64,000 bases of DNA from Escherichia coli. GTDB lineage: Bacteria; Pseudomonadota; Gammaproteobacteria; Enterobacterales; Enterobacteriaceae. The position numbers and the translations under genes are program-made. The stretch lies in the NCBI RefSeq assembly GCF_003334305.1, contig NZ_QOWS01000005.1, one strand, 5' to 3'. Shown here piece after piece: positions 48,158 to 48,355 of this stretch. Below the pieces are notes generated by a model that did no database searches, was not told the origin of the DNA, and saw only the letters and a program-made list of their open reading frames with translations. Position 1 is the stretch's first letter. Every line of letters starts with the position of its first letter.

Positions 48158-48355
48158 TTTTGCACCTTTTAAGAGCCATTGAAAACAAGGAGTTGAGTCC
48201 TGATTGGTTTATCGTATGGCCGAGTCGTTTAATAATCACCCTGATGTTGAACAACTTTATCACTGTATTACTGTGATCAATGTACCAGGACGTATAGCTA
48301 CTGCGGGATATGATATTTAAACAATGTAATCTGTTATATACCAGTAAGGGAAAAT

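What the first reader, a model, noticed from the sequence alone, without database searches (positions are those of the whole stretch)
48158..48355. Divergent promoter region of the insert with a candidate operator palindrome
The 198-bp region between the regulator and the IIB gene contains the near-palindrome ctgTtatataCcag (48331..48344) just upstream of the IIB ribosome-binding site, plus repeated caatgta motifs. HutC-family repressors typically bind short AT-centred palindromes at such positions.
Basis: inference. Interest (0 to 1): 0.3.

Follow-up and report, generated by a model that had tools for sequence, protein, structure and literature searches.

The report
bgc operon promoter region, E. 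coli
This is the already-described control region between the regulator gene bgcR and the beta-glucoside (bgc) sugar-uptake operon of E. coli; the flagged palindrome is real but no better than chance and is not conserved outside Escherichia, whereas a CRP site and a widely spaced inverted repeat further upstream are conserved across many genera.

Summary
The sequence is as described. There is a 198-bp gap (48158-48355) between a GntR/HutC regulator on the minus strand and a PTS IIB gene. CTGTTATATACCAG lies at 48331-48344 (6 of 7 pairs) and caatgta occurs twice.

The locus is the published E. coli bgc operon (bgcR / bgcEFIHA), inserted between eamA and marB. About 46% of complete E. coli genomes carry it. 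In this window bgcR is a pseudogene (K86 stop).

The palindrome is not statistically unusual: 30% of shuffles give one. It lies at about +11 to +24 of the predicted transcript. It is kept only in E. coli and E. albertii, although the regulator's recognition helix is identical in all 20 aligned orthologous regulators. A secondary source describes BgcR as a positive regulator, not a repressor.

Four elements are conserved from Escherichia to Yersinia and Erwinia:
- the bgcR start with its ribosome-binding site;
- an AAAACA-N4/5-GTT block;
- an inverted repeat GTTCA-N16-TGAAC (48227-48252) whose arms resemble NagR half-sites;
- a CRP core (48272-48287) followed exactly 21 nt later by a -10 (TATGAT, 48309-48314), the layout of a class II CRP promoter.

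The inverted repeat, not the palindrome, is the best candidate for the BgcR site. Overall this is an ordinary, known locus.

The parts
47459..48157 (-). bgcR, a GntR/HutC-type regulator gene. It is a pseudogene in this window: codon 86 AAA->TAA, plus T138R.
   Evidence: Translation compared with intact WP_000577184. PGAP note 'internal stop' in the 100% identical strain H15. Annotated without a pseudogene flag in 8 of 8 other E. coli strains sampled.
48158..48355 (.). bgcR-bgcE divergent intergenic control region (198 bp).
   Evidence: 98% mean column identity among 9 E. coli strains. Same length (+/- a few nt) and block order in 21 loci from other genera with the same R<>IIB layout.
48158..48171 (-). 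bgcR ribosome-binding region next to the GTG start (48155-48157). Top strand (CAC)TTTTGCACCTTTT; CACTTTTGAACCTC in most genera.
   Evidence: Near-invariant block in 31 orthologous modules. The same AGGT(T/G)CAAAAGT motif recurs in the second modules without a regulator ORF behind it, so it may also be a DNA site (inference).
48181..48195 (.). Conserved block AAAACA-N4/5-GTT(A/G) (here AAAACAAGGAGTTGA). Function unknown; it could be part of the bgcR promoter or a further site.
   Evidence: Conserved columns. No convincing sigma-70 match.
48227..48252 (.). Inverted repeat GTTCA-N16-TGAAC (here GTTTA...TGAAC), with arm centres at about -92 and -71 from the predicted start. Best candidate for the BgcR binding site.
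   Evidence: Found with at most 1 mismatch and a spacer of exactly 16 at the homologous place in 30 of 31 modules. A second copy lies upstream of the ROK kinase-bglA genes (directly upstream of bglA in L026, L032 and L033) in 13 loci: 12 with at most 1 mismatch and L037 with 2. Background is about 1 per 24 kb, my tally of the hit list. In both arms G and the next T are 31/31 and the final A 29-31/31. The CRP-proximal arm reads AGT(T/G)GT(T/G)CA, i.e. a NagR-like GTGGT/GTTGT half-site.
48272..48287 (+). CRP-binding core TGTGATCAATGTACCA, centre at -41.5 of the predicted start.
   Evidence: TGTGA is kept in nearly all orthologous modules at a fixed distance from the inverted repeat and the -10. 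Two mismatches to consensus, so not significant on its own (29 such sites in the window, 28.6 expected). CRP dependence of the bgc promoter rests on my memory of the Neelakanta 2009 abstract.
48309..48314 (+). Predicted -10 hexamer TATGAT of the bgcE promoter. No -35. Predicted start near A48321 and a 35-nt 5' UTR.
   Evidence: A TAnnnT hexamer lies exactly 21 nt after the CRP core in all eight lineages where I counted it by hand from the, 33 sequences: TATGAT, TAATAT, TAACAT, TAAGTT, TAAAGT, TACAGT, plus TATGAT in L054 and TATTAT in C. koseri. The generic sigma-70 scan finds no + strand promoter, as expected for an activator-dependent promoter. The start site is inferred, not measured.
48331..48344 (.). 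The flagged near-palindrome CTGTTATATACCAG, at about +11 to +24 in the predicted 5' UTR.
   Evidence: Present. Chance level. Invariant in 11 E. coli sequences, 13/14 in E. albertii, not kept elsewhere. No RNA structure signal (fold z = -0.23). No Rfam match.
48356..48667 (+). bgcE, PTS IIB (lactose/cellobiose family), first gene of the operon.
48782..53636 (+). Rest of the operon: IIC (48782-50104), IIA (50132-50443), LamB-like porin (50499-52172) and 6-phospho-beta-glucosidase (52197-53636), i.e. bgcF, bgcI, bgcH and bgcA.
   Evidence: PGAP annotation of the identical strain H15. NCBIfam matches.

Best explanation
The 198-bp region is the divergent control region of the known bgc (beta-glucoside/cellobiose) locus of E. 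coli, lying between bgcR and bgcEFIHA.

Transcription of bgcE most likely starts near 48321 from an activator-dependent promoter. It has no -35. A CRP site is centred at -41.5 (48272-48287) and a -10 TATGAT lies at 48309-48314, which is the class II CRP layout.

The cognate regulator BgcR is a HutC-type protein reported to act positively. It most likely binds the conserved, widely spaced inverted repeat GTTCA-N16-TGAAC upstream of CRP (48227-48252, arms near -92 and -71) and helps CRP and RNA polymerase from there. It may also bind a related GGT(T/G)CA motif over its own ribosome-binding site.

The flagged palindrome lies downstream of the start, in the 5' UTR. It is most likely a lineage-specific, chance AT-centred dyad, not the family's operator.

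In this strain bgcR carries a stop at codon 86. The operon should therefore lack its activator and be silent unless a promoter-up mutation arises.

Shown: the sequence features, their conservation, the gene content and the pseudogene. Inferred: the start site, CRP occupancy, and BgcR binding to the repeat.
For: Identity of the locus:
- Gene order regulator<>IIB-IIC-IIA-porin-6-P-beta-glucosidase between eamA and marB.
- 2494 of 5426 complete E. coli genomes carry at least 80% of 47400-54000.
- PMC3585215 describes the five-gene bgc operon (it names BgcE, BgcF, BgcI and BgcA) and calls BgcR a positive regulator.

Promoter:
- The TGTGA core is positionally fixed in about 33 orthologous modules. 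A TAnnnT hexamer lies exactly 21 nt after the 16-bp core in every lineage I counted.

Inverted repeat:
- 30 of 31 main modules and 12 of the 13 second-module copies match with at most 1 mismatch; L037 has 2. The spacer is always 16 nt although its sequence has diverged.
- The arms match the NagR half-site contacts G-7, T-6, (G/T)-5, G-4, T-3.
- BgcR keeps the equivalents of NagR Arg48 and wing Gly69.

Palindrome:
- Chance level.
- Not conserved beyond Escherichia.

Pseudogene.
Against: - No transcription start, footprint or binding data could be consulted. The primary paper (Neelakanta, Sankar, Schnetz 2009) is not in the library and may already map the start, the CRP site or the activating mutation differently.
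- The CRP site has two mismatches and is not significant in isolation.
- The second copies of the repeat belong to a duplicated whole module, so they are not independent evidence for the repeat alone.
- Half-sites about 21 bp apart (centre to centre) are not the geometry of any solved HutC-DNA complex.
- In E. coli and E. albertii the distal arm is degenerate (GTTTA).
- The palindrome is invariant in the E. coli sequences sampled and nearly so in E. albertii, and it is dre-like. A local function in Escherichia is therefore not excluded.
Confidence: 0.6

Rival explanations
1. CTGTTATATACCAG is the BgcR (HutC-type) operator. BgcR bound there at +11 to +24 blocks transcription or translation initiation until an inducer releases it.
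For: - It is a dyad with 6 of 7 pairs, one base from TGGTATATACCA.
- The right half CTGGTAT carries the G-5, G-4 and T-3 that NagR reads.
- The related regulators BguR and GmuR are repressors with AT-centred palindromes, ATGTCTAGACAT and ATGTaTAGACAt.
- It is invariant in 11 E. coli sequences and 13/14 in E. albertii.
Against: - Chance level: 30% of shuffles give one.
- The left half lacks the key G-4 (it has T).
- It is absent from the sister clade and from about 25 other orthologous loci, although the recognition helix is conserved in all 20 aligned regulators.
- BgcR is reported as a positive regulator.
- Within-E. coli invariance is uninformative: about 14 variable sites in 198 bp give roughly a 0.35 chance of sparing any 14-mer (my estimate).
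Confidence: 0.12
2. The conserved inverted repeat is not the BgcR site. It is either bound by another protein or made of core elements of the divergent bgcR promoter. BgcR then binds elsewhere, for example the AAAACA-N5-GTT block, or the CRP-to--10 spacer (which is conserved in Kluyvera and Raoultella).
For: - TTGAAC resembles a -35 hexamer.
- The AAAACA-N4/5-GTT block and the GGTTCAAAAGT block are about equally conserved.
- A conserved near-palindrome TTAACAATTATTAA sits between CRP and the -10 in Kluyvera and related loci.
- No direct binding data exist here.
Against: - No -10 lies at a proper distance from either arm on either strand (and inspection).
- The strict 16-nt spacing, with a diverged spacer sequence, argues for simultaneous protein contact with both arms.
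- The arms match a GntR-family half-site, and the repeat travels with the regulator through four operon architectures and a second promoter region.
Confidence: 0.2
3. The palindrome acts at the RNA level as a 5' UTR hairpin affecting translation or stability, or it is the site of an unrelated DNA-binding protein such as LexA.
For: It lies in the predicted 5' UTR just before the ribosome-binding site. The CTG...CAG ends recall a LexA box.
Against: - The fold of 48321-48380 is no more stable than shuffles (-6.6 kcal/mol, z = -0.23).
- No Rfam match.
- A LexA box is CTG-N10-CAG, whereas this is CTG-N8-CAG (established consensus, from my own knowledge).
- Not conserved.
Confidence: 0.04

Closest known systems
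bgc operon of E. coli (bgcR; bgcE, F, I, H, A), Neelakanta, Sankar and Schnetz 2009, Appl Environ Microbiol 75:2284
   Same: Same gene content and order: a divergent GntR-type regulator, then PTS IIB, IIC, IIA, a porin and a phospho-beta-glucosidase. Present in ExPEC/B2 strains such as MS7163 and in E. albertii. BgcR is described as a positive regulator. From my memory of the abstract: CRP dependence, and a single promoter mutation that makes the promoter BgcR-independent.
   Different: Nothing differs in kind; this is that locus. Here bgcR carries a nonsense codon (K86*). I could not read the paper, so I do not know whether its mapped start, CRP site or activating mutation coincide with my predictions.
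NagR (YvoA) / DasR dre operators of the GntR/HutC subfamily
   Same: BgcR's closest solved relatives are NagR and DasR. The NagR half-site GTGGT is read by Arg48, Arg38 and wing Gly69. The arms of the conserved repeat read GT(G/T)GT, and the right half of the flagged palindrome reads CTGGT.
   Different: NagR half-sites are separated by 6 nt and bound by one closed dimer acting as a repressor. The conserved repeat here has arms about 21 bp apart (centre to centre), lies upstream of a CRP site, and belongs to a reported activator. The NagR Arg38 equivalent is Ala in E. coli BgcR and Lys in most orthologues.
BguR (S. pneumoniae) and GmuR (B. subtilis) operators
   Same: These are GntR-type regulators divergent from, or within, cellobiose-type PTS operons. 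PMC3585215 reports them as similar to BgcR.
   Different: They are repressors with compact palindromes overlapping the -35 (AAAAATGTCTAGACAAATTT; tAAATGTaTAGACAttTa). No such compact palindrome is conserved in the bgcR-type loci.
Class II CRP-dependent promoters with an additional upstream activator (for example melAB and chbBCARFG-type sugar promoters)
   Same: A CRP core centred near -41.5, no -35, and a second conserved site upstream on roughly the same helical face.
   Different: The upstream partner here would be a HutC-type protein rather than an AraC-type one. Occupancy and the start site are inferred only.

Membership tests
bgc operon control region (bgcR-bgcE intergenic) | A divergent GntR-type regulator next to PTS IIB-IIC-IIA, a porin and a phospho-beta-glucosidase | tested here: met
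   PGAP annotation of the 100% identical strain H15. NCBIfam hits for all five products and the regulator.
bgc operon control region (bgcR-bgcE intergenic) | Accessory locus of E. coli, also present in E. albertii, with homologues in Klebsiella, Enterobacter and Citrobacter | tested here: met
   2494 of 5426 E. coli genomes. E. albertii, Citrobacter, Enterobacter, Klebsiella, Raoultella, Kluyvera and other loci.
bgc operon control region (bgcR-bgcE intergenic) | Promoter dependent on CRP and positively controlled by BgcR | not testable with these tools
   This needs genetics. A secondary source states the positive regulation. A positionally conserved CRP core is consistent with it.
HutC/NagR-type compact operator (dre-like) | Dyad symmetry with two half-sites about 6 nt apart | tested here: met
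   CTGTTATATACCAG has 6 of 7 pairs.
HutC/NagR-type compact operator (dre-like) | A guanine at -4 in both half-sites, read by the conserved Arg of the recognition helix | tested here: not met
   The right half has G-4 and G-5 (CTGGTAT). The left half is CTGTTAT, with T at -4.
HutC/NagR-type compact operator (dre-like) | Conserved at orthologous loci whose regulators share the DNA-reading residues | tested here: not met
   Kept only in E. coli and E. albertii. Lost in L054, C. koseri, Citrobacter On2M and S. diarizonae, and absent in about 25 further loci. The recognition helix is conserved.
HutC/NagR-type compact operator (dre-like) | More frequent than chance in its context | tested here: not met
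   29.7% of 5000 shuffles contain such a palindrome.
HutC/NagR-type compact operator (dre-like) | Bound by the cognate regulator | not testable with these tools
   Needs EMSA or footprinting with intact BgcR.
Class II CRP-dependent promoter | CRP site TGTGA-N6-TCACA centred near -41.5, overlapping a missing -35 | tested here: inconclusive
   TGTGATCAATGTACCA (2 mismatches) lies 21 nt upstream of TATGAT, and this spacing is kept in every lineage counted. No sigma-70 -35/-10 pair on the + strand. The start site was not measured, and the site alone is at chance frequency.
LexA (SOS) box | CTG-N10-CAG | tested here: not met
   The spacing here is CTG-N8-CAG.

The most novel reading that the evidence does not exclude
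BgcR-type regulators may be HutC-family activators that bind two NagR-like half-sites (GT(G/T)GT(T/G)CA) held exactly 16 nt apart, about two helical turns centre to centre, upstream of a class II CRP site. A closed HutC dimer cannot span this geometry, but the splayed, effector-bound form seen in NagR structures might. That would explain how a member of a repressor family came to act positively, and it would define a conserved cis-module spread across Enterobacterales in at least four operon architectures.
Probability: 0.25. Interest if true: 0.5.

Novelty: already known. Interest (0 to 1): 0.2.

Why it matters
The locus is a known 'cryptic' beta-glucoside system, reported as enriched in extraintestinal pathogenic E. 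coli. Knowing where its regulator really binds matters for understanding why it is silent in the laboratory and how it is switched on.

This check redirects attention from an unremarkable 5' UTR palindrome to a strongly conserved upstream inverted repeat plus a CRP module. It also shows that the regulator is dead in this strain, so binding experiments must use an intact allele.

The wider interest is modest. It would rise only if the wide half-site spacing turns out to be a general mechanism for activation by HutC-type proteins.

Tried and rejected
- Reading the primary paper (by DOI, PMC id and PubMed id): not held. Other citing papers gave no promoter detail.
- Within-species comparison: nine strains spanning the identity range are 98% identical in the gap. 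That is too little divergence to test a 14-mer.
- Two apparently intermediate regulators (P0006 at 89%, P0026 at 73%) turned out to be E. coli loci with shortened gene calls, so they added nothing.
- Generic sigma-70 scan: only two weak minus-strand matches, at chance level. No + strand promoter and no terminator.
- CRP consensus scan of the window: the site alone is at chance frequency.
- RNA explanations: no Rfam hit and no stable 5' UTR fold.
- LexA box: wrong spacing.
- NagC/Mlc, Cra, CytR, ArcA and PhoP consensus sites were compared with the inverted repeat from memory. None fits its arm orientation and spacing, but this was not tested formally.
- Attempts to place the bgcR promoter (-10/-35) in the conserved AAAACA-N5-GTT block gave no convincing hexamers, so it is left open.
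- Hit H70 was fetched as a presumed non-carrier junction. It is instead a strain with an internal deletion from bgcR to the porin gene.

Full report
**Observation.**
The window is E. coli chromosome. The region 48158-48355 is exactly the 198-bp gap between a minus-strand GntR-type regulator (start GTG at 48157) and a plus-strand PTS IIB gene (ATG at 48356).

The near-palindrome CTGTTATATACCAG is at 48331-48344 with 6 of 7 complementary pairs. It lies two bases before the AAGGGA ribosome-binding site. CAATGTA occurs at 48278 and 48322.

Neither feature is unusual (all):
- 29.7% of 5000 dinucleotide shuffles of the 198 bp contain a 14-mer palindrome of this quality.
- The whole window has 79 of them.
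- Repeated exact 7-mers are expected (P = 0.68).
- HutC core matches (GTnTAnAC, at most 1 mismatch) are at chance.

**What the locus is.**
Megablast against 5426 complete E. coli genomes shows that 47400-54000 is an accessory block between eamA and marB. 2494 genomes carry it. The rest match only the marB side.

PGAP annotation of an identical strain lists a GntR family regulator (pseudogene, internal stop), PTS IIB, IIC, IIA, a carbohydrate porin and a 6-phospho-beta-glucosidase. NCBIfam agrees.

This is the bgc operon (bgcR; bgcE, F, I, H, A) of Neelakanta, Sankar and Schnetz 2009. I could not open that paper. PMC3585215 summarises it: BgcR is a positive regulator of the bgc operon, and its relatives BguR and GmuR are repressors with compact AT-centred palindromes. 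From my memory of the abstract, the bgc promoter is CRP-dependent and a single base change makes it BgcR-independent.

In this window bgcR has AAA->TAA at codon 86, plus T138R. Eight other strains sampled across the identity range carry a bgcR annotated without a pseudogene flag.

**Conservation within E. coli.**
Nine strains are 98% identical over the gap. The palindrome, the CRP-like site and the -10 are invariant. With only about 14 variable columns, however, any 14-mer escapes change about one time in three, so this says little.

**Conservation across genera.**
A search with intact BgcR gave a graded series of orthologues (87% to 47% identity). One scan of representative genomes then returned 44 loci.

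In 21 of them the layout regulator<>IIB is kept, with a gap of about 198 bp. In others the divergent gene is IIC or the glucosidase.

Alignment and an ungapped stack anchored on the repeat show five conserved blocks:
- the bgcR start and ribosome-binding site (CACTTTTGAACCTC);
- AAAACA-N4/5-GTT(A/G) (window 48181-48195);
- an inverted repeat GTTCA-N16-TGAAC (window 48227-48252; in Escherichia the distal arm is GTTTA);
- a CRP core TGTGA-N6-TnnCA (window 48272-48287);
- a TAnnnT hexamer exactly 21 nt after that core, by my count on the aligned sequences. It reads TATGAT at 48309-48314 here, and TAATAT, TAACAT, TAAGTT, TAAAGT, TACAGT and TATTAT elsewhere.

That spacing is the class II CRP geometry (CRP centre at -41.5). 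It predicts a start near A48321 and a 35-nt leader. The generic sigma-70 scan finds no plus-strand promoter, as expected for an activator-dependent promoter without a -35. Taken alone, the CRP site is at chance frequency in the window. Its weight comes from positional conservation.

**The flagged palindrome in this frame.**
It lies at about +11 to +24.
- E. albertii keeps 13 of 14 bases.
- The sister clade keeps only an AT core (ATTTAATATA) without the CTG/CAG arms. This clade is an unidentified 75% locus (L054), C. koseri, Citrobacter sp. On2M and S. enterica diarizonae.
- In about 25 further loci the best match anywhere in the module has 4-6 mismatches.

The recognition helix SRNT[LI]RKA and the wing HG(S/A)G are kept in all 20 aligned regulators, so a family operator should be conserved.

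The palindrome does resemble a NagR/DasR dre site. Its right half CTGGTAT has the G-5 G-4 T-3 that NagR reads with Arg38 and Arg48, but its left half has T at -4.

There is no RNA signal: the fold z-score is -0.23 and there is no Rfam hit.

**The better candidate site.**
The inverted repeat occurs with at most one mismatch, and always with a 16-nt spacer, at the homologous place in 30 of 31 modules. The range includes Yersinia and Erwinia. By my tally of the hit list, the same pattern occurs about once per 24 kb elsewhere in the sequences held.

In both arms G and the following T are 31/31 and the final A is 29-31/31. The CRP-proximal arm reads (A/G)AGT(T/G)GT(T/G)CA. This contains GTGGT or GTTGT, the NagR half-site with its G-7, T-6, (G/T)-5, G-4, T-3 pattern.

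BgcR's closest solved relatives are NagR/YvoA and DasR. It keeps the equivalents of NagR Arg48 and Gly69. The Arg38 equivalent is Ala in E. coli and Lys in most orthologues.

In 13 loci of Cedecea, Enterobacter, Buttiauxella, Ewingella and a Klebsiella sp., a second copy of the whole module lies downstream of the regulator. It sits upstream of ROK kinase-bglA genes, or directly upstream of bglA in L026, L032 and L033. It comprises a CRP half-site, GGTTCA-N16-TG(A/C)ACC and AGGT(T/G)CAAAAGT, and its spacer sequences are unrelated to those of the main module. Twelve copies match the repeat with at most one mismatch; L037 has two. So the repeat accompanies the regulator through several architectures and a second promoter of the same presumptive regulon.

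With the predicted start, the arm centres are near -92 and -71, upstream of CRP. That position suits an activator.

Half-sites about 21 bp apart centre to centre cannot be spanned by the closed HutC dimer seen on DNA. Whether two dimers bind, or an open effector-bound dimer does, is speculation.

**Verdict.**
- The 'operator palindrome for a HutC repressor' part is not supported. It is at chance level, not conserved, downstream of the start, and the regulator is reported to activate.
- The locus is already described.
- The conserved repeat-CRP module is a useful refinement, but I cannot tell whether the 2009 paper already located the BgcR site.
- In this strain the question is moot, because bgcR is truncated.

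Noticed in passing
window 47459-48157 (minus strand), stop at codon 86 (about 47900-47902): bgcR is a pseudogene here (K86* plus T138R). It is annotated without a pseudogene flag in eight other E. coli strains sampled. The protein search also returned many truncated E. coli variants (145-218 aa clusters with tens to hundreds of members), which suggests recurrent inactivation of this regulator.
   Followed up: partly
L018, L022, L024 (3765-3790), L036 (3761), L038 (3728), L028 (3815), L029 (3809), L026/L031/L032 (3776), L033 (3780), L037 (3817), L048 (3245): A second, paralogous copy of the whole control module lies downstream of the regulator, upstream of ROK-family kinase and bglA genes (directly upstream of bglA in L026, L032 and L033). 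It has a CRP half-site, GGTTCA-N16-TG(A/C)ACC and AGGT(T/G)CAAAAGT. The motif that forms the regulator's ribosome-binding site and start in the main module is kept here without a regulator ORF behind it.
   Followed up: partly
L013, L014, L015, L019, L020, L021, L035: 26 nt after the TGTGA of the CRP core: In Kluyvera and related loci a conserved near-palindrome TTAACAATTATTAA fills the spacer between the CRP site and the -10. Raoultella keeps the same AAATTAACAATTATTA sequence but has a C in the last arm, so the palindrome scan did not list it. Escherichia has nothing similar. It could be a further operator in those genera.
   Followed up: no
L016 (Kluyvera cryocrescens NBRC 102467), just beyond the inverted repeat at 568-593: The module is cut right after the inverted repeat. 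The CRP site and promoter are replaced by sequence beginning GGAAGGTGCGAATAAG, which from memory looks like an IS5-family end inserted at a TTAA target.
   Followed up: no
L059 (E. coli 2014C-3307, NZ_CP027368.1), and hit H11 (strain Nord1): There is natural decay of the locus in other strains. One has an internal deletion joining the 3' end of bgcR to a truncated porin gene. Another has an IS1 in the porin gene.
   Followed up: no
window 48668-48781: There is an unusually long (about 114 nt), AT-rich gap between the IIB and IIC genes inside the operon. In several other genera the IIB gene is missing and IIC directly faces the regulator (L012, L014, L019, L027, L030, L043, L045).
   Followed up: no
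window 47400-53700 against 5426 E. coli genomes: The locus is present in about 46% of complete E. coli genomes, including strains labelled O104:H4 and O111:H8. From my memory of the 2009 abstract, that paper described it as mainly a group-B2 trait that is rare in commensals, so it may be broader than reported. GC content is about 0.38-0.47 in the block against about 0.49-0.51 in the flanks.
   Followed up: partly
BgcR residue 29 (alignment A2), equivalent to NagR Arg38: The residue that reads G-5 in NagR is Ala in E. coli and E. albertii. It is Val, Ile or Asn in the 67-75%-identity group (P0011, C. koseri, S. enterica incl. subsp. salamae, and one E. asburiae protein), Gln in Yersinia kristensenii and Asn in the most distant sequence (P0095), and Lys in the other eleven. 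No matching change in the -5 base of the repeat arms was evident.
   Followed up: partly
L026 and L032 (Buttiauxella), 3700-3970: Here the regulator's own upstream region lacks the module. A rearranged copy, including a remnant that looks like a regulator ribosome-binding site and start, lies between the regulator and bglA. This indicates that the control module has been reshuffled.
   Followed up: no
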